From: a virus
Lineage: Duplodnaviria; Caudoviricetes
Length of the DNA stretch: 64,000 nucleotides
Strand: one strand, 5' to 3'
Virus record (IMG/VR): IMGVR_UViG_3300021387_000796
Span: 1-64,000 of that record
Shown here: positions 13,984 to 55,540 of the stretch, piece by piece
Position numbering within the stretch: the first letter of the stretch is position 1
How the letters are laid out: every line of letters begins with the position of its first letter
Notes under the pieces: generated by a model
Told to the model about the DNA's origin: nothing
Database searches by the model: none
The model's input: the letters and a program-made list of their open reading frames with translations, nothing else
Translations under genes and position numbers: made by a program

Positions 13984-14029
13984 TTTTTGAACTTGAAATG
14001 TTAAAGAAATAAGTATACTATCTTATATT

Positions 14030-14100
14030 AAGAGGTGAGTTTAGGTTTTCGCCCTAAACGTTGATTGAATTTTAATCTCGTTCAATCACGCCTCTTTTTT
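14030..14100 (+). ncRNA. Putative three-way-junction regulatory RNA, copy 1
   Basis: Promoter TTGAAA-17-TACTAT (13993-14021). Closing stem 14030-37/14089-96, loops TTTTCGC and TTTTAATCTCG, then a T-run. Confidence 0.75.
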
Positions 14101-14178
14101 TTATAACTATTTATATGTGTAAACATTAACTATTTAAGTTAATACAAAGTCAGCGAAAATGACTTAAAAATTAAAATT

Positions 14179-15507
14179 ATGAATCTGATGAATCGAATGA
14201 TGTCTTATGATAAGACAAAGAATGTAAATCGAAAGTGTGATTGTGAAAAATGTGCAAATGTTAAATTTGAAAATCAAACTGTAGAACATCTACCTTTATC
14301 CGAAGAAGAAATTAATCAAATTATTAAAGAAAGATATTCTAATAAAGATGAAAAGACAAAGAAATTTATTAGAAAAGCATTACGAAAATATGGTGATAGA
14401 TATGATTATTCAAATGTGGTTTATGTAAAAGCAATAGAAAAAGTAGAAATAATTTGTAGAGTTGAAGGTCATAAACCATTTCCTCAAACACCTAATAATC
14501 ATTTGAATGGTAAAGGTTGTAAAAAATGTGCATTTGAAAAAATATCAAAATTGAAGAAATTAACCACCAAAGAATTTATAGAAAAAGCAAATGAAGTTCA
14601 TGGTGATATGTATGATTATTCTAAAGTGGAATATGTGGGTATGAAAACAGAAGTGATTATAATTTGTCCGAAACATGGACCTTTTTCACAAATACCTAGT
14701 AGTCATTTACAAGGTTGTGGATGTAAACAATGTGGTATTGAAAAACAAATTGAAAGTCAAAAATTAAATACGGAAAAATTTATAAAAAAAGCAAATGAAA
14801 AATACGGAGAAGGAACTTATGATTATTCGAAAGTAGAATATATTGATGCTAAAACTGATGTGATTATAATATGCCCAAAACATGGTGAATTTACACAAAC
14901 TCCATCGAATCATTTAAAAGGGGAAAAATGCCGAAGTTGTTCTAATGAAAAATTAGCAAACGAAAGAAGAAAACCGTTAGAAAATTTTATAAATGAGTCA
15001 AATGAAATTCATGGAGAAGGAACTTATGATTATTCTCAAGTAAATTATGTGAATAGTCATACAGAAGTAATTATAATTTGTTCAAAACATGGTAATTTTT
15101 TTCAAAAACCTAGCAAACATTTAATCGGTCAAGGTTGTCCTAAATGTAAGAATAATTATAAAGGAGAAATCGCAGTTAGAAATTTTTTAATAAAAAATAA
15201 AATAGAATTTGAAGAACAGAAAAAATTTAAAAATTGTAAAGATGTATATTCGTTACCTTTTGATTTTTATTTGCCAAAATATAATTTGTGTATAGAATTT
15301 GACGGAATACAACATTTTAAACCAATAAAACGAAGTTATAAAATGACTGATGATGAAATTGAAAAAAATTTCAAATATATTCAAAAACATGACCAAATTA
15401 AAAACGATTACTGTAAAAACAATGGGATTATTCTCATAAGACTTAATAATCTTAAAATGGTCGAAAAGGAATTAACAAAATACTTTCAAGAATACGGAAT
15501 TTTATAG
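14179..15507 (+). CDS. Free-standing endonuclease: four YDYS/CxxHG/GCxxC (DUF723-like) repeats plus C-terminal PD-(D/E)xK/Vsr-like domain
   Basis: Repeats YDYSKVEY..IICPKHG.F.Q.P..HL.G.GC..C and LPFDFYLP.YNLCIEFDG.QHF. Paralog of 54161. Confidence 0.8.
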   Translation: MNLMNRMMSYDKTKNVNRKCDCEKCANVKFENQTVEHLPLSEEEINQIIKERYSNKDEKTKKFIRKALRKYGDRYDYSNVVYVKAIEKVEIICRVEGHKPFPQTPNNHLNGKGCKKCAFEKISKLKKLTTKEFIEKANEVHGDMYDYSKVEYVGMKTEVIIICPKHGPFSQIPSSHLQGCGCKQCGIEKQIESQKLNTEKFIKKANEKYGEGTYDYSKVEYIDAKTDVIIICPKHGEFTQTPSNHLKGEKCRSCSNEKLANERRKPLENFINESNEIHGEGTYDYSQVNYVNSHTEVIIICSKHGNFFQKPSKHLIGQGCPKCKNNYKGEIAVRNFLIKNKIEFEEQKKFKNCKDVYSLPFDFYLPKYNLCIEFDGIQHFKPIKRSYKMTDDEIEKNFKYIQKHDQIKNDYCKNNGIILIRLNNLKMVEKELTKYFQEYGIL

Positions 15508-40068: not shown

Positions 40069-40141
40069 ATTTTTAATTATTTCTCTTTAAATTTATGATT
40101 TTTTACTTGATTAAATATTTAGAATTTATTATATTTAATTG

Positions 40142-40202
40142 TGAGAGGACAGTATGCTACCAACATATTGATTTCATATTCCTTTATGAAATCTAACTCT
40201 TA
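40142..40202 (+). ncRNA. Putative three-way-junction regulatory RNA, copy 3
   Basis: Promoter TTGATT-17-TATATT (40107-40135). Loops CTACCAA and TTCCTT are complementary to leader loop TTGGTAG and SD AAGGAA. Confidence 0.75.
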
Positions 40203-40253
40203 ACTATTTATGTTGTCATTGGTAGTGACATAAAAGTTAAAACATTTAAGGAA

Positions 40254-42335
40254 ATGAAACAAATGACTGAAATCAAAGATAATTTAAAATCGATATCGTG
40301 GATTCGTAAAAATATTAATGTAAAATTAAAAACGTTAAATAAAATAATAAAAATTCTAAATCTCAATCCCACAATTAGAACAAATAAATTTAACGAACAA
40401 ACGGAATATTATGATTTAGATAAAATAAAAGAATTTATAAATTCTCACGATGTTAATCGTATGTATAGTATTTCGCAAATTTCTAAAATAATAGGTGTTG
40501 GTCGTACATCAATAAATACAGTAATAAAATATTTAAATTTAGATAAATTTGAATTTTTATGCGATGAAGAATTGAATAAAATAAAACAATTTTATAAAGA
40601 GCATGAGAATGATTATAGATATTTTTTTCAAAACAAAACAAATCTTGAAAAATACGGTTCGTTGTGTCCGTTGGCAAATAAAGAAATTCAAAAGAAAGCA
40701 GAAGAAACTTGTTTGGAAAAATATGGTGTAAAAAATTATACCAAAACTGAAGAATTTAAAACAAAATTTAAACAAACTTCTTTAGAAAAATATGGTACAG
40801 AATTTCCTATGCAAAACGAAGATGTTAAAGAAAAAGGAAAGCAAACTTCATTAGAACGTTATGGTGTTGAATATGCATCTCAAAGTGAAGATTTTAGAAA
40901 AAGAGTTGAACGAACTAATTTAGAAAAATACAATACAAGATGTTCGCTTCATTCATATGAAGCAGAACAAAAAACTAAAGAAACTAACTTAAAATGTTAT
41001 GGTGTAGAAAATGTTTCACAATCAAATATCATTAAAGAAAAAGTTAAGAATACTAATTTAAAAAATTTCGGAGTTGAACATCCGATTCAAAATGAAAAAA
41101 TCAAAGAAAAGATTAAACAAACCAATCTCAAAAAGTTAGGAGTTGAATATCCTACACAAAATAAAGATATTATGAATAAAGTAAAACAAAGTAATCTTAA
41201 AAAATTTGGTGTAGAATGTTCTTTACAAAATAAAGAAATTAGAGATAAAGTGACACAAACTTATTTGAAAAAATTAGAACTTGCAAAATCTCAAAATTTA
41301 TATTGTGTTAAAGATTTAGCAATTATTTTTAATAAAAGCGAAAGTGCCATTACTATGGATTTGAAGCGTCTAAACATTGATGTTGTCAAATTTGAAAAAG
41401 ATTTTAGGTTGTATGTAAAACAATCTGATTTGAAAATTCTTGAAAATTATTTTATTGATACAGAATGTAGCGGAATATCTTATTCTGAAAAAGAAATAGT
41501 AGAATTTATAAAATCTATTTATTCAGACGAAATTATTGAAAATAGTAGAACTATTATTTCACCAAAAGAATTGGATATTTATATACCTCAAAAGAATTTA
41601 GCAATTGAATATGATGGATTGTATTGGCATGATGAAAATCATGTGGAAAATAAATATCATTTAAATAAAACAAAAGCATGTAATGAAAAAGGGATAGATT
41701 TGATTCATGTTTTTGAAGATGATTGGTTGTACAAAAAAGAAATTGTGAAATCTATGATTTCTAGCCGACTTGGTGTTTATAAAGAAAAGATTTTTGCTCG
41801 TAAATGTCAGATAAAGGAAATTGAAAAAGACCAAGCGAAAATATTTTTTGATGAGAATCATTTACAAGGGTTTGCGTACGGTGATTTGTATTTAGGACTT
41901 ATGTTTAACAATGAACTTGTTCAATGCATCTGTATGAATAAAAAAGGTTGGCATGATGGAAATGTAGAATTAACTCGCATGGCTACAAAATTGAATATTC
42001 AAGTAATTGGAGGATTCAGTAAATTGATGAAACATATTTCCGATTATATTGAATACAAATCAATCACAAGTTATGTGTATAAAGCATGGTTTAATGGAAA
42101 AGGATATATGGAAAGTGGATTCAAAGTAATCAAAGAAAATAATCCTTCTTATTTTTATATTGTAAATGGTAAACGAATTCATAAATCTAATTTTCGAAAA
42201 GACAAGATTAAGAAAATGTTCGAGAGAGGGGGATTAGAATTTTATGATTCAGATAAAACAGAACATGAAATTATGAAGAAAAACAAGATATATAGAATTT
42301 ATGATTGCGGAACTATGAAAGTAATTTACGAATAA
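40254..42335 (+). CDS. Free-standing (Hef-like) endonuclease with about 8 TNLEKYGVE repeats
   Basis: Repeats KQTNLKKYGVEYP.Q, ELDIYIP...LAIEYDGLYWH and C-terminal RIYDCG. The start may be ATG 40263. Confidence 0.8.
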   Translation: MKQMTEIKDNLKSISWIRKNINVKLKTLNKIIKILNLNPTIRTNKFNEQTEYYDLDKIKEFINSHDVNRMYSISQISKIIGVGRTSINTVIKYLNLDKFEFLCDEELNKIKQFYKEHENDYRYFFQNKTNLEKYGSLCPLANKEIQKKAEETCLEKYGVKNYTKTEEFKTKFKQTSLEKYGTEFPMQNEDVKEKGKQTSLERYGVEYASQSEDFRKRVERTNLEKYNTRCSLHSYEAEQKTKETNLKCYGVENVSQSNIIKEKVKNTNLKNFGVEHPIQNEKIKEKIKQTNLKKLGVEYPTQNKDIMNKVKQSNLKKFGVECSLQNKEIRDKVTQTYLKKLELAKSQNLYCVKDLAIIFNKSESAITMDLKRLNIDVVKFEKDFRLYVKQSDLKILENYFIDTECSGISYSEKEIVEFIKSIYSDEIIENSRTIISPKELDIYIPQKNLAIEYDGLYWHDENHVENKYHLNKTKACNEKGIDLIHVFEDDWLYKKEIVKSMISSRLGVYKEKIFARKCQIKEIEKDQAKIFFDENHLQGFAYGDLYLGLMFNNELVQCICMNKKGWHDGNVELTRMATKLNIQVIGGFSKLMKHISDYIEYKSITSYVYKAWFNGKGYMESGFKVIKENNPSYFYIVNGKRIHKSNFRKDKIKKMFERGGLEFYDSDKTEHEIMKKNKIYRIYDCGTMKVIYE

Positions 42336-46422: not shown

Positions 46423-46495
46423 GATTGAAAGGAATGATAGGCGGTCAACCTATTGATAGAATATCCTAGTTCTGTCTAACCTTTCAATCTTTTTT
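46423..46495 (+). ncRNA. Orphan three-way-junction RNA, copy 4
   Basis: Closing stem GATTGAAAGG/CCTTTCAATC, loops CGGTCAA and ATCCTA, then a T-run and the same TAACTAT..AACATTAACTATTT spacer. Confidence 0.7.
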
Positions 46496-52522: not shown

Positions 52523-53944
52523 ATGAAAACAATCGAAGAACTAAAAGAACATTTTGAAGGTATTGAATTTTCAGACAAGTATATGGAAATTCTGAAATAT
52601 ATAAGGGAAGATGAGAATGCTAAACTCTCAATTCAAGGGAATGCTGGGTCAGGCAAGTCAACACTGCTTAAAATCATCAATTATATGTTTTCTGACGATG
52701 TTGAAAACAAGAGAATGAATGTTGCAATTGCTTCTTCCACAGGTGTCGCAAGTGCTTTGTTGAATAATGGAACAAATCTTGGTGCTACAACTATTCACTC
52801 GTTATTTCGCCTAAAACCAATTGACATTTTTGGTGCATTTACAAACTCTTCTTATTCACAGAAAGATTTGATTGGAAATATTGATTGCTTTATTTTTGAT
52901 GAAGTTTCTATGGTCAGTTGTGATATGTTCGATTATATAATGTCCATTATTCGTGTATGTCGAAGAGGAAAACCAACAAGAGTTATTTTGTTCGGGGACT
53001 GCTTGCAACTTCAATGTGTTGTTAAAATGGACGACCCTCAAGTAAAAGATTATTATATGACAAATTATAATGGAAATGTAGAATTCTTCTCATCGTTTGC
53101 ATTTAAGGATATGGGATTTGCTACGTTCTTGCTTACAAAAATATATCGTCAAAACGATACTGATGAAAAATTTAAAGATGTCTTGAATAGAATTCGTGTA
53201 TGTGAACAAACACAAGCCGACCTTGATTATTTGAATCAAAGGGTTATGAGTGAAGAAGATTATATTATGCAAAATGAATCTTTTTTGAGAATTGTGTCTA
53301 CAAACAAAGATGTGCAAAAATATAATCAGATTGCTTTGGACGCTATTGATGGAAAATTTATTTGTCTTACTGCTAAAATCAGCGGTAATTTCCGTGAAAC
53401 TTCAGAGTTTAAAAATGGTTTCTTTGCTGAAAAGATTTGGGTAAAAATCGGTTGTCCTGTTATGATTTTACGCAACGCATCTCCAAATGAAAATGGAATT
53501 CGTGATTATTATAACGGTAGTATGGGAACATTGATTTCTTGTAACGATGATTATGCTATTGTAGATTTGGGTGATAGAGAAGTAAAAGTTGAACGTTCAG
53601 TAACAAATAATTATGAATATGAACTTGTAGAAGAAAACGGACACACTGCCGTAAAAAGTAAAATAACAGGTTCTTATGATAATATCATGATTAAAGTTTG
53701 CAGTGCTTCAACTATTCATAAGACACAAGGACTTACACTTTCGAGAGCATATATAGACTATGGTAATTGGCTCCCAGATAATGGTTTGTATGTTGCTTTA
53801 AGTAGATTCCGTTCTATCAAGGATTTCGGGTTAGCAAAGCCTATAAAAATGCGAGATATTCACGCTACACAAGAAAGTCTAAATTATGTGAAAAATAATG
53901 AATTTTTTGAAAATGTGTATAATGAGATGTTTGGAAAAGATTAA
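52523..53944 (+). CDS. PIF1/RecD-like SF1B helicase
   Basis: Motifs GNAGSGKS, TIHSLF, DEVSM, GDCLQL, YRQ, TIHKTQG and YVALSR. Confidence 0.92.
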   Translation: MKTIEELKEHFEGIEFSDKYMEILKYIREDENAKLSIQGNAGSGKSTLLKIINYMFSDDVENKRMNVAIASSTGVASALLNNGTNLGATTIHSLFRLKPIDIFGAFTNSSYSQKDLIGNIDCFIFDEVSMVSCDMFDYIMSIIRVCRRGKPTRVILFGDCLQLQCVVKMDDPQVKDYYMTNYNGNVEFFSSFAFKDMGFATFLLTKIYRQNDTDEKFKDVLNRIRVCEQTQADLDYLNQRVMSEEDYIMQNESFLRIVSTNKDVQKYNQIALDAIDGKFICLTAKISGNFRETSEFKNGFFAEKIWVKIGCPVMILRNASPNENGIRDYYNGSMGTLISCNDDYAIVDLGDREVKVERSVTNNYEYELVEENGHTAVKSKITGSYDNIMIKVCSASTIHKTQGLTLSRAYIDYGNWLPDNGLYVALSRFRSIKDFGLAKPIKMRDIHATQESLNYVKNNEFFENVYNEMFGKD

Positions 53945-53992
53945 AATAAAACAATATTGATTTTAACAAAACATAACTATATTATTTAATTG

Positions 53993-54072
53993 ATAAGCGA
54001 GATGTATTTCAAGTTGGTGCTTGAATTGACAGAATTCCTAATCTCATTTTGTCACATCTCGTTTATTTTTTT
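53993..54072 (+). ncRNA. Putative three-way-junction regulatory RNA, copy 2
   Basis: Promoter TTGATT-17-TATTAT (53957-85). 13-bp closing stem, loops TTGGTG and TCCTAATCTC, then a T-run. Confidence 0.8.
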
Positions 54073-54160
54073 AACTATCTATTCTGAACATTAACTATTT
54101 TAATGTGAAAGTCGCACCAACGACTTTAAAGGTAAAATTATTTTATAGGAGATTAGGATT

Positions 54161-55495
54161 ATGAATTCATTAACTCGAATGATGTCTTACGACAAGGCAA
54201 AAAGTAAAAATCAAGAACAGTGTAATTGTGTAGAATGTGTTTCTGTTGAAAATGCAGAATTAAAAAATCAAACGATTGAATACCCAAAATTATCGGAAGA
54301 AGAAATCGAACAAATTATTAATGAAATATATTCTTATAAAGATGAAAAGACAAAAACTTTTATTAGAAAAGCATTAAGAATTCATGGTAATAGATATGAT
54401 TATTCAAATGCTGTTTATGTGAATACTAAAATAAAAATTGAAATAATTTGTAAAATAAATAATCATAAAAATTTTTTGCAACGACCGAATGACCATTTGA
54501 AAGGTTGTGGATGTAAAGAATGTGCTAAAAAATATTTTGGTGCAAGTAAAAGATTAACATTGGAAGAATTTATAAAAAAATCAAACGAAATACAAGGTGA
54601 AGGGAGATATGATTATTCGAAAGTTGAATATAAAAATACGAATACTAAAGTATGTATAATTTGCAATAATCACGATGAACCTTATGAATTTTGGCAAACT
54701 CCTAGCAATCATTTAAACGGACACGGTTGCCCAAAATGTGCAAGAATTGAAAAATTAACCTTGAAAGAATTTATTGAAAAAGCGAACAGAGTTCATGGTG
54801 TAGGAACTTATGATTATTCTGAATCAAAATATATTAACACAATAACTCCTATTAAAATAATTTGTTTAATTCATGGTGGTTTTTGGCAGACACCCAATGT
54901 TCATTTAGGTGGAAGTGGATGTCCTAAATGTGCAAATGAACTTGTACATGAACGACAAAAATTAACCTTGAAAGAATTTATCGAAAAAGCAAATGAGGTA
55001 CAAGGGATTGGAAGATATGATTATTCAAAAGTAAAATATATAAATGCACATACTAAAGTAATTATAATTTGTCCGAAGCATGGTGAATTTTCTCAATTAC
55101 CTTATGCTCATTTAAAAGGACGAGGATGTATGTTATGTTGTGAAAAATCAAAAGGTGAAACAAAAATTAGAATATTTTTAATTAATAACAACATATCATT
55201 TGAACAAGAAAAACGATTTAAAGAATGTAGAGATAAAAATCCACTACCTTTCGATTTTTATTTACCGCAATATAATTTATGTATTGAATTTGACGGTGAA
55301 CAACATTTCAAACCATTCGCTTTTAATTCTAGGAAAGTAAGTGATGATATAAAATTAGAAAATCTCAAAAAGGTTCAAAAACATGACCAAATGAAAAATG
55401 ATTATTGTAAAAAGAACGGAATTACTCTTTTGAGAATTAACGATATTAGAAAAATTAATAAAATATTGAATGATTATTTTAAGATAAAAAATTAG
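54161..55495 (+). CDS. Free-standing endonuclease, paralog of 14179 (DUF723-like repeats plus PD-(D/E)xK/Vsr-like domain)
   Basis: Same N-terminal RMMSYDK, four YDYS repeats and LPFDFYLP..NLCIEFDGEQHF. Confidence 0.8.
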   Translation: MNSLTRMMSYDKAKSKNQEQCNCVECVSVENAELKNQTIEYPKLSEEEIEQIINEIYSYKDEKTKTFIRKALRIHGNRYDYSNAVYVNTKIKIEIICKINNHKNFLQRPNDHLKGCGCKECAKKYFGASKRLTLEEFIKKSNEIQGEGRYDYSKVEYKNTNTKVCIICNNHDEPYEFWQTPSNHLNGHGCPKCARIEKLTLKEFIEKANRVHGVGTYDYSESKYINTITPIKIICLIHGGFWQTPNVHLGGSGCPKCANELVHERQKLTLKEFIEKANEVQGIGRYDYSKVKYINAHTKVIIICPKHGEFSQLPYAHLKGRGCMLCCEKSKGETKIRIFLINNNISFEQEKRFKECRDKNPLPFDFYLPQYNLCIEFDGEQHFKPFAFNSRKVSDDIKLENLKKVQKHDQMKNDYCKKNGITLLRINDIRKINKILNDYFKIKN

Positions 55496-55511
55496 AGAAA
55501 TTAAAAAAAAC

Positions 55512-55540
55512 AAACCCTAGACTCAACATCTAGGGTTTTT
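55512..55540. terminator. Bidirectional terminator
   Basis: AAACCCTAGA-ctcaaca-TCTAGGGTTT between convergent genes. Confidence 0.75.

What the first reader, a model, noticed from the sequence alone, without database searches (positions are those of the whole stretch)
53957..55495. Candidate new system: barcoded double-loop RNA paired with each phage endonuclease gene
Seen: three endonuclease genes (14179, 40254, 54161) are each preceded by the same architecture. In order it is a sigma70-like promoter, a 60-75 nt three-way junction (closing stem plus two hairpins, T-run in two copies), TAACTAT motif(s), a leader hairpin, then the RBS and ATG. In this clearest copy, loop 1 TTGGTG (54014-19) is the exact complement of leader hairpin loop CACCAA (54115-20). 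Loop 2 TCCTAATCTC (54036-45) is the exact 10-nt complement of the RBS GAGATTAGGA (54149-58). The other copies use different but still complementary pairs: TTTTCGC/GCGAAAA and CTACCAA/TTGGTAG. The partners lie on the same strand and do not overlap, so complementarity must be maintained by compensatory change. Established: plasmid antisense RNAs (CopA/CopT, RNAI) use kissing loops but are encoded on opposite strands, and T4 I-TevI is silenced on early mRNA by a simple SD hairpin. Inference: an early small RNA (or a cis double pseudoknot on read-through RNA) docks via a 6-7 nt loop barcode and occludes the SD of the late nuclease mRNA. This would be a type I toxin-antitoxin-like self-immunity or timing device for selfish nucleases, with orthogonal specificity per copy. 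I know of no described family with this design.
Basis: partly seen in the sequence, partly recalled or inferred. Interest (0 to 1): 0.95.

Follow-up and report, generated by a model that had tools for sequence, protein, structure and literature searches.

The report
Two-loop repressor RNA before homing endonucleases
In front of selfish DNA-cutting-enzyme genes of an uncultured 218-kb gut phage sits a real, strongly covarying folded RNA, with one loop matching a private 7-letter "barcode" in the gene's leader and the other matching its ribosome-binding site; it most likely holds down production of the enzyme, and the same design is already known from the C4 RNA of phages P1 and P7.

Summary
All stated coordinates and complementarities are exact. 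The genome holds four complete copies: three in the window and one at about 199,470-199,298 on the minus strand. It also holds one orphan junction at 46,423-46,490. Related viral and metagenome contigs bring the total to about 20 instances with 15 different loop-1/leader-loop barcodes. Every one is a perfect 6-7 nt Watson-Crick complement, against a non-cognate mean of 2.6 nt. Loop 2 pairs with 5-10 nt of the Shine-Dalgarno/spacer and covaries with it. Stems show compensatory changes in 14 of 16 pairs. TAACTAT is not part of the device: it is this phage's general promoter-like element.

The RNA matches no Rfam family, C4 and int-alpA included. The P1/P7 C4 antisense RNA has three stems, sits on the same strand upstream of its target, and uses one loop on the RBS and one as specificity loop. 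T-even homing-endonuclease leaders with an internal late promoter are a second close precedent.

Whether the RNA acts in trans or only in cis is open, and the timing and toxin-antitoxin claims are untested. Other first readers of this scan noted this cassette family in this genome, and similar designs were noted on other phage DNA.

Verdict: a new variant of a known kind; interest 0.6.

The parts
53957..53985 (+). Promoter-like stretch before the junction of copy 3: TTGATT-17-TATTAT overlapping a TAACTAT at 53974-53980
   Evidence: The hexamer match is not above chance. An ACTAT-type or TATAAT-type element lies 8-20 nt before the closing stem in nearly all instances.
53992..54071 (+). Three-way-junction RNA of copy 3. 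Closing stem 53992-54004 / 54055-54067; hairpin 1 at 54008-54025 (loop 1 at 54014-54019); hairpin 2 at 54027-54054 (loop 2, anti-SD, at 54036-54045); T-run to 54071
   Evidence: Minimum-energy fold; covariance model R1 hit at 49 bits; stem covariation.
54072..54098 (+). Two TAACTAT promoter-like elements (54072-54078 and 54092-54098) between the junction and the leader
   Evidence: general gene-upstream element of this phage. The leader hairpin starts 6-13 nt after it in every instance.
54108..54127 (+). Leader hairpin of the nuclease mRNA; its loop CACCAA (54115-54120) is the exact complement of loop 1
54147..54163 (+). Shine-Dalgarno sequence, spacer and ATG; 54149-54158 is the exact 10-nt complement of loop 2
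   Evidence: duplex energy -15.6 kcal/mol.
54161..55495 (+). Free-standing homing-endonuclease-like gene (444 aa): zinc treble-clef repeats plus a C-terminal Vsr/PD-(D/E)xK-like core
   Evidence: Pfam DUF4379 and weak DUF2726; PHROGs endonuclease families. The whole cassette 53945-55540 is absent from a relative whose helicase is 92% identical.
13993..14181 (+). Copy 1 cassette leader. Junction 14030-14096 (loop 1 at 14046-14052, loop 2 at 14070-14080); TAACTAT at 14104 and 14127; leader hairpin 14147-14165 (loop at 14153-14159); ATG at 14179; SD deleted
40107..40256 (+). Copy 2 cassette leader. Junction 40142-40203 (loop 1 at 40157-40163, loop 2 TTCCTT at 40180-40185); TAACTAT at 40201; leader hairpin 40214-40230 (loop at 40219-40225); SD AAGGAA at 40248-40253; ATG at 40254 of a 693-aa DUF7487-type homing endonuclease
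   Evidence: Weak closing stem and no T-run; the minimum-energy fold does not recover it.
46423..46490 (+). Orphan junction RNA (loop 1 CGGTCAA) with no matching leader loop and no nuclease. The syntenic site of a relative carries the full cassette with a 434-aa nuclease

Best explanation
Each cassette encodes a roughly 80-nt three-way-junction RNA just upstream of, and on the same strand as, a free-standing homing-endonuclease gene. The RNA begins right after a promoter-like element and ends in its closing stem plus a T-run.

The nuclease mRNA starts at the TAACTAT element(s) downstream of the junction, so its 5' end is the leader hairpin. Loop 1 of the junction RNA forms a 6-7 bp loop-loop (kissing) helix with the leader hairpin loop. 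This contact is private to each cassette and gives speed and specificity. Loop 2 then pairs with 5-10 nt of the Shine-Dalgarno sequence and spacer and blocks ribosome binding.

The junction RNA acts in cis on any transcript that reads through its terminator. As a released small RNA it also acts in trans on promoter-proximal mRNAs. The result is that nuclease synthesis is kept low or delayed.

This is the logic of the P1/P7 C4 antisense RNA transplanted to selfish nuclease cassettes.

Shown here: the structures, both complementarities, and their covariation and orthogonality.

Inferred: the promoters, the terminator, the existence of a discrete small RNA, repression itself, and action in trans.
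For: 1. Loop 1 and the leader loop are exact complements in every instance examined (18 tabulated, two more), with 15 different sequences. Non-cognate pairs average 2.6 nt, with a maximum of 6.
2. A near-identical pair (L060/L087) differs by one loop-1 base and the matching leader base.
3. Loop 2 pairs with the RBS over 5-10 nt exactly, in at least 8 covarying variants. Cognate pairs average 7.7 nt and non-cognate 5.2 nt; 0 of 20,000 permutations reach the observed sum. Duplex energies are -6 to -16 kcal/mol.
4. The hairpin stems are 96% paired, and 14 of 16 pairs show changes on both sides; 0 of 500 shuffles reach this.
5. Loops diverge about twice as fast as the stems (0.51 against 0.23-0.34 differences per site). 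That fits selection for private specificity, which matters only if the RNA can meet other mRNAs in trans.
6. A promoter-like element ends 8-20 nt before the closing stem in nearly all instances, and a T-run follows the closing stem in most. That is the anatomy of a stand-alone small-RNA gene.
7. TAACTAT precedes an SD plus ORF start within 120 nt in 60% of its 95 genomic copies, against 9.5% for permuted 7-mers. It always lies 6-13 nt before the leader hairpin.
8. The same design heads three nuclease architectures.
9. Precedent: in C4, loop b' occludes the RBS and loop a' gives specificity, and 4 changed bases separate P1 from P7 (PMC5320573).
Against: There is no transcript evidence of any kind.

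The sigma70-like hexamers are not above chance, and the ACTAT-type elements are only inferred to be promoters.

One instance (L014) leaves only 23 nt between the upstream stop codon and the junction, so there the junction is more simply the 3' end of the upstream mRNA.

Copy 2 has a weak closing stem and no T-run.

The two orphan junctions have no detectable trans target in their genomes. A cis-only fold explains the pairings equally well.

If the small RNA and the mRNA use the same promoter class, the timing logic is unclear.
Confidence: 0.5

Rival explanations
1. Cis-only control of the T-even type. The junction is chiefly the terminator or insulator of the upstream operon (primase, RtcB, helicase). 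On transcripts that read through it, loop 2 sequesters the SD and the loop 1/leader kiss locks the fold. Transcripts that start at the internal TAACTAT promoter lack the junction and are translated. No free small RNA has a function, and the barcodes differ only through neutral compensatory drift.
For: The arrangement 'inhibitory sequence, then internal phage promoter, then RBS' is the one described for I-TevI, I-TevII, I-TevIII, segB and mobE (PMC2988022). Every cassette follows a co-oriented gene. In L014 the junction starts 23 nt after the upstream stop codon. The orphans have no trans targets. The sigma70-like promoter is not above chance.
Against: A promoter-like element sits just before the closing stem in nearly all instances. 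A T-run terminator between the anti-SD and the SD would make a cis lock largely redundant. The loops are the fastest-evolving part of the element while staying perfectly complementary, and copies in one genome are orthogonal. Cis folding does not require either property.
Confidence: 0.35
2. The pairings serve RNA processing, stability or activation rather than repression. For example, the loop-loop and loop-SD helices might create an RNase III site, or the junction might act only as terminator and the leader hairpin only as a 5' stabiliser of the mRNA.
For: The leader hairpin is predicted to sit at the very 5' end of the mRNA, which is a known stabiliser position (my own knowledge). The junction plus T-run looks like a terminator. 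The orphan junctions persist without a nuclease.
Against: Loop 2 is complementary to the SD and spacer itself in all instances and covaries with them, which points directly to ribosome exclusion. A pure terminator or stabiliser role does not explain perfect loop-loop complementarity across 15 barcodes.
Confidence: 0.08
3. Type I toxin-antitoxin-like addiction or self-immunity. The small RNA would be an unstable antidote whose loss releases a lethal nuclease, stabilising the cassette.
For: The general resemblance of an adjacent RNA repressor with a potentially harmful protein. The loop-loop initiation resembles the fst/RNA II and hok/sok type systems (my own knowledge).
Against: The proteins are 434-693 aa site-specific homing-type nucleases, not small membrane peptides. 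In a lytic 218-kb phage there is no obvious segregational context. Cassettes are lost cleanly in relatives. Window copy 1 has lost its SD yet keeps the RNA.
Confidence: 0.05
4. Chance, or a by-product of duplication: the complementary loops are accidental in A/T-rich DNA or copied along with paralogous cassettes.
For: The genome is 29% G+C, and A/T-only loop pairs do occur by chance (3 in 218 kb).
Against: There are 15 different G/C-containing barcodes, all exact. Shuffles give a pair in 11 of 12,000 trials, and none occurs in 94 kb of control loci. Single compensatory substitutions separate near-identical copies.
Confidence: 0.01

Closest known systems
C4 antisense RNA of phages P1 and P7 (Rfam RF01695; Citron & Schuster 1990, as summarised in PMC5320573)
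   Same: A roughly 77-80 nt RNA with three stems, encoded upstream of its target on the same strand. One loop (b') pairs with the target's ribosome-binding site. A second loop (a') pairs with an upstream site and sets specificity. Loops and targets covary between relatives, so that variants do not cross-react.
   Different: There is no sequence or covariance-model similarity. Here the specificity site is itself presented in a hairpin loop, giving a true kissing contact. The target is a homing endonuclease in a large lytic-type phage, not the icd-ant immunity operon of a temperate phage. RNase P processing is unknown. Here a promoter-like element and a T-run flank the RNA.
RBS-sequestering leaders of T-even homing endonuclease genes (I-TevI, I-TevII, I-TevIII, segB, mobE of Aeh1; PMC2988022)
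   Same: Selfish nuclease genes are silenced at translation by pairing of the SD with upstream RNA. A phage-specific promoter lies between the inhibitory sequence and the RBS, so that promoter-proximal transcripts escape. A terminator-like structure lies upstream (mobE).
   Different: In the T-even phages a single local hairpin does the job. Here a separate junction about 100 nt away uses a loop-SD helix plus a barcoded loop-loop helix. The junction also has the anatomy of an independent small-RNA gene.
OxyS-fhlA two-site kissing complex (Argaman & Altuvia 2000; my own knowledge, not checked here)
   Same: Two loops of a small RNA bind two sites of one mRNA, one of them overlapping the SD, and together they give stable repression.
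   Different: OxyS is a trans-encoded host small RNA with many targets. It is not a private regulator encoded next to its target.
Plasmid copy-number antisense RNAs (CopA/CopT, RNA I/RNA II)
   Same: Recognition starts with 6-7 nt loop-loop contacts. The loops are the specificity (incompatibility) determinants and diversify.
   Different: Those RNAs are transcribed from the opposite strand of the target, so complementarity comes for free. Here both partners lie on one strand and must covary.
int-alpA RNA motif (Rfam RF02996), named as closest relative for similar leaders in earlier reports of this scan
   Same: A phage-associated structured RNA upstream of mobile-element genes. Earlier reports describe an anti-RBS loop in relatives of that motif.
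   Different: The RF02996 model finds nothing in this genome at E <= 10. Membership is not supported here.
CfrI antisense RNA of cyanophage S-PM2 (Millard et al. 2010, cited in PMC12197685)
   Same: A phage small RNA physically linked to a homing endonuclease gene.
   Different: CfrI is a true opposite-strand antisense RNA spanning the psbA/F-CphI region. It has no two-loop same-strand design.

Membership tests
C4 antisense RNA (Rfam RF01695) | Match to the family covariance model | tested here: not met
   No hit at the gathering score in the window. None at E <= 10 in 53900-54200 or in the whole 218-kb genome.
C4 antisense RNA (Rfam RF01695) | About 77-nt RNA with three stems that presents two recognition loops | tested here: met
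   A closing stem plus two hairpins, about 80 nt in all. The stems covary.
C4 antisense RNA (Rfam RF01695) | One loop complementary to the target's ribosome-binding site | tested here: met
   Loop 2 pairs with the SD and spacer over 5-10 nt exactly in all instances, and the two covary.
C4 antisense RNA (Rfam RF01695) | A second loop complementary to an upstream target site that sets specificity and differs between relatives | tested here: met
   15 loop-1/leader barcodes, all exact; non-cognate mean 2.6 nt.
C4 antisense RNA (Rfam RF01695) | Encoded upstream of the target on the same strand | tested here: met
   The junction lies 60-110 nt upstream of the leader on the gene's strand in every instance.
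C4 antisense RNA (Rfam RF01695) | Released from a precursor by RNase P; controls the icd-ant immunity operon | not testable with these tools
   No RNA data. The target here is a homing endonuclease, so the operon context differs.
T-even homing-endonuclease translational control (I-TevI type) | The SD of the nuclease gene is base-paired with upstream RNA | tested here: met
   The loop 2/SD complementarity covaries. It is a long-range loop-SD helix, not the local hairpin of the T-even cases.
T-even homing-endonuclease translational control (I-TevI type) | A phage middle or late promoter lies between the inhibitory sequence and the RBS | tested here: inconclusive
   TAACTAT lies there in all instances and behaves as a general gene-upstream element. 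Promoter activity and timing class are not shown.
int-alpA RNA motif (Rfam RF02996) | Match to the family covariance model | tested here: not met
   No match in the genome at E <= 10, and none in the region scan.
Type I toxin-antitoxin system | The toxin is a small, usually hydrophobic peptide whose mRNA is silenced by an unstable antisense RNA | tested here: not met
   The targets are 434-693 aa nucleases. RNA stability is not testable.
Opposite-strand kissing antisense RNAs (CopA, RNA I) | Regulator and target are transcribed from opposite strands of the same DNA | tested here: not met
   Both partners lie on the same strand and do not overlap.

The most novel reading that the evidence does not exclude
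The junction RNAs are trans-acting private repressors, and their barcodes are under diversifying selection because paralogous selfish nuclease cassettes compete. A cassette that shares a barcode with a resident cassette would be silenced by the resident's RNA during co-infection, a form of incompatibility or heteroimmunity between homing endonucleases. That would make this a naturally evolved library of at least 15 orthogonal two-site RNA repressors. It would also be the first RNA-level conflict system described among homing endonucleases.
Probability: 0.3. Interest if true: 0.8.

Novelty: new variant of a known kind. Interest (0 to 1): 0.6.

Why it matters
If it works as inferred, it shows that free-standing homing endonucleases can carry their own portable RNA brake. 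It would extend the C4 principle (a same-strand antisense RNA with one RBS loop and one specificity loop) from temperate enterobacterial phages to selfish genes of large uncultured gut phages.

The 15 natural barcode pairs, all in one scaffold, form a ready-made set of orthogonal kissing-loop regulators. They also give an unusually clean covariation data set for long-range RNA-RNA contacts. The element is absent from Rfam and could be filed as a new family.

It does not open a new category of mechanism.

Tried and rejected
- Rfam: nothing at the gathering score for the whole window, and only noise at E <= 10 for the region. The C4 and int-alpA models found nothing in the whole genome.
- tRNA-like reading: ARAGORN found no tRNA or tmRNA in the window.
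- RNA evidence: no RNA holder is listed among public runs for 52523-55540; only animal-gut DNA runs hold it. I did not lay reads, because DNA contigs cannot show transcripts.
- Close relatives among deposited phages: none by megablast. The DNA polymerase is at most 39% identical to that of any deposited phage.
- Distant nuclease homologues in six cultured phages have 0-88 nt upstream gaps. Those loci, together with the loci around distant homologues in viral contigs (94 kb in all), hold no kissing pairs. The RNA therefore does not travel with the protein family at large.
- RNAalifold on the raw MAFFT alignment of all 18 junctions gave no structure, because of register shifts. A 10-sequence seed gave model R1 with the two hairpins only. 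R1 misses copy 2 and the L048-type junctions at E <= 1.
- A weak R1 hit at 147,804-147,867 is an ordinary terminator hairpin.
- A junction-motif scan of viral contigs added only two chance matches inside coding sequence.
- Trans targets for the two orphan junctions: none convincing.
- PDB sequence search of the nuclease: no hit.
- My first hairpin scanner rejected stems flanked by extra G-U pairs and so missed some copies. I corrected it from then on.
- I did not pass a typed pseudoknot string to the count of structure pairs. The long-range pairs were counted in my own scripts instead.
Full report
**What is there**

The window is the first 64 kb of a 218,066-bp virus record with 29% G+C, estimated 92% complete. 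The public runs that hold it are animal-gut DNA metagenomes. It has no close relative among deposited phages.

- TTGATT-17-TATTAT.
- A closing stem (53992-54004 with 54055-67) around hairpin 1 (loop TTGGTG, 54014-19) and hairpin 2 (loop TCCTAATCTC, 54036-45).
- A T-run.
- TAACTAT twice (54072 and 54092).
- A leader hairpin with loop CACCAA (54115-20).
- GAGATTAGGA (54149-58) and the ATG at 54161.

RNAfold gives the junction plus leader hairpin as the minimum-energy fold for copies 3 and 1, with z-scores of -3.5 and -3.3. Copy 2 is weaker.

**More than chance**

I scanned the genome for two same-strand hairpins, 200 nt or less apart, with fully complementary loops. The scan returns the three window copies, a fourth copy on the minus strand (about 199,470 to 199,298, heading a 499-aa paralogous nuclease), and three A/T-only pairs. 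Shuffled upstream regions give such a pair in 11 of 12,000 trials. In 94 kb around distant nuclease homologues there are none.

**Relatives and covariation**

I gathered related sequences in four ways: protein-guided and pattern scans of viral contigs, one pattern scan of metagenome contigs, and a covariance-model search of five related virus records. These gave 18 tabulated instances and two more.

The loop-1/leader-loop pair is a perfect Watson-Crick complement in every instance, 6 nt in the copy-3 type and 7 nt in all others. There are 15 different sequences. Non-cognate combinations share on average 2.6 nt and at most 6 nt. The four copies in this genome cross-match by at most 4 nt.

Two nearly identical cassettes (L060 and L087) differ in loop 1 by one base and in the leader loop by the matching base.

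Loop 2 pairs with the Shine-Dalgarno sequence and spacer over 5-10 nt in all instances that have an SD, in at least eight covarying versions. Examples are TCCTAATCTC/GAGATTAGGA, TTTTAATCTC/GAGATTAAAA, TTCGACCTC/GAGGTCGAA, CACAATCC/GGATTGTG, GAGTTCTC/GAGAACTC and TCTCCTTTT/AAAAGGAGA. Cognate pairs average 7.7 nt against 5.2 nt for non-cognate pairs, and 0 of 20,000 permutations reach the observed sum.

On an Infernal alignment the two hairpin stems are 96% paired. Changes on both sides occur in 14 of 16 pairs; 0 of 500 shuffles reach this, and slid controls collapse.

Loops differ at 0.51 sites per site between family members. Stems differ at 0.23-0.34.

**What the flanks are**

TAACTAT occurs 95 times in the genome. 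In 60% of cases an SD-led ORF start follows within 120 nt on the same strand (median 45 nt), against 9.5% for permuted 7-mers. There is no -35 consensus. It is therefore the phage's general promoter-like element and not part of the nuclease device.

In every cassette TAACTAT ends 6-13 nt before the leader hairpin, so the hairpin would be the 5' end of the mRNA (this is an inference).

A similar ACTAT-type or TATAAT-type element ends 8-20 nt before the closing stem in nearly all instances, and a T-run follows the closing stem in most. That is the anatomy of a separate small-RNA gene. One instance (L014) has only 23 nt between the upstream stop codon and the junction.

**The genes behind the RNA**

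Copies 1, 3 and 4 encode paralogous proteins of 442-499 aa with zinc treble-clef repeats and a Vsr/PD-(D/E)xK-like C-terminus. Copy 2 encodes a 693-aa DUF7487 protein that matches PHROG 'homing endonuclease' families. The L014 instance heads a 668-aa protein with NUMOD1/HTH repeats and a weak TnsA-N-like nuclease match.

All are free-standing and follow conserved replication genes (primase, RtcB, helicase).

A relative whose helicase is 92% identical lacks the entire cassette 53945-55540, so the RNA and the gene are gained or lost together at that site. At 46423-46490 the window keeps an orphan junction plus promoters, while a relative has the complete cassette with a 434-aa nuclease at the same site. 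A second orphan lies in that relative. Neither orphan has a credible trans target.

Four other DUF7487-bearing genes of the genome lack the two-loop RNA. Homologous nucleases in six cultured phages have no room for it.

Window copy 1 has lost 16 nt, including its SD, between two short repeats. Its orthologues have a perfect 10-nt loop-2 match.

**How it most likely works**

Loop 2 is an anti-Shine-Dalgarno sequence. The loop 1/leader kiss is the fast, specific first contact that holds loop 2 on the SD. Together they should block 30S binding and keep nuclease synthesis low or delayed.

On read-through transcripts this would happen in cis. If the junction is released as an RNA of about 80 nt, it can also act in trans on mRNAs started at TAACTAT.

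I favour the combined cis-and-trans reading (0.5). The junction has its own promoter-like and terminator-like flanks. The barcodes are the fastest-evolving yet perfectly matched part of the element. Copies within a genome are orthogonal.

The cis-only, T-even-like reading is a serious rival (0.35). A processing or stability role (0.08), a toxin-antitoxin role (0.05) and chance (0.01) are less likely. No transcript data exist, so promoters, terminator, repression and action in trans are all inferred.

**Comparison with what is known**

The design is not unprecedented. The C4 RNA of P1 and P7 is an RNA of about 77 nt with three stems, encoded upstream of its target on the same strand. Its loop b' occludes the RBS and its loop a' sets specificity, and four changed bases make P1 and P7 non-cross-reactive (PMC5320573, citing Citron & Schuster 1990).

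T-even homing endonuclease genes are silenced by an RBS-sequestering RNA structure with a late promoter placed so that late transcripts escape (PMC2988022).

The present element combines both ideas. It differs in using a true hairpin-loop-to-hairpin-loop contact about 100 nt away, in its target, and in its phage lineage. It matches no Rfam model, C4 and int-alpA included.

Full-text searches found no paper describing such an RNA for homing endonucleases. The nearest is the opposite-strand CfrI RNA of cyanophage S-PM2.

**Earlier notes of this scan**

Other first readers flagged the same cassette family in this genome, including the C4 likeness, the orphan junction and copy 2. Follow-up reports on other phage genomes describe junction leaders with an anti-RBS loop before nuclease genes, and one has a kissing loop and a T4-type late promoter in the same order. 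I treated these as leads. I tested the C4 and int-alpA memberships and the orphan myself, and I could not test the other genomes.

**Verdict**

This is a real, uncatalogued RNA family that works like C4 and like T-even nuclease leaders, so it is a new variant of a known kind.

Noticed in passing
window 14160-14181: Copy 1 has lost 16 nt, including its Shine-Dalgarno sequence, between two 'attaaaatt' repeats relative to orthologues L001 and L002. Those orthologues have a perfect 10-nt loop-2/RBS match. The 442-aa nuclease frame is still open, so this copy may be translationally dead.
   Followed up: partly
window 46423-46490: An orphan junction RNA (loop 1 CGGTCAA) with promoters but no matching leader loop and no nuclease. 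The syntenic site of a related 135-kb record holds a full cassette with a 434-aa nuclease. A second orphan lies at G002:18682-18766.
   Followed up: yes
whole genome, e.g. window 9231, 11795, 18277, 38596(-), 46495: TAACTAT(Y)T is a general gene-upstream element of this phage. It has 95 copies, and 60% are followed by an SD-led ORF start within 120 nt, against 9.5% for permuted 7-mers. It has no -35 box. It is probably the promoter of a phage-specific transcription class.
   Followed up: partly
G000 about 193,520-193,429 (minus strand, outside the window): A 400-aa DUF7487 gene has a simpler leader. After TAACTAT comes a single 13-bp hairpin whose 5' arm (AATCTC) could pair either with its 3' arm or with the RBS GGAGATT. 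This is a decoy/anti-SD arrangement without the two-loop junction.
   Followed up: no
G000 about 74,076 (minus strand, outside the window): A DUF7487 domain lies in a frame that continues from upstream coding sequence with no leader.
   Followed up: no
L069:1940-2110 (minus strand): One 5.3-kb metagenome contig carries two cassettes with different barcodes: TTGGACG/CGTCCAA and AGACCAA/TTGGTCT. The second has a 9-nt loop-2/RBS match.
   Followed up: yes
G002 (record behind L015), 135,409 bp: This relative has 37.6% G+C overall against 29% here, and a higher-G+C methyltransferase-like gene directly after its helicase. It may be a mosaic or a chimeric assembly.
   Followed up: no
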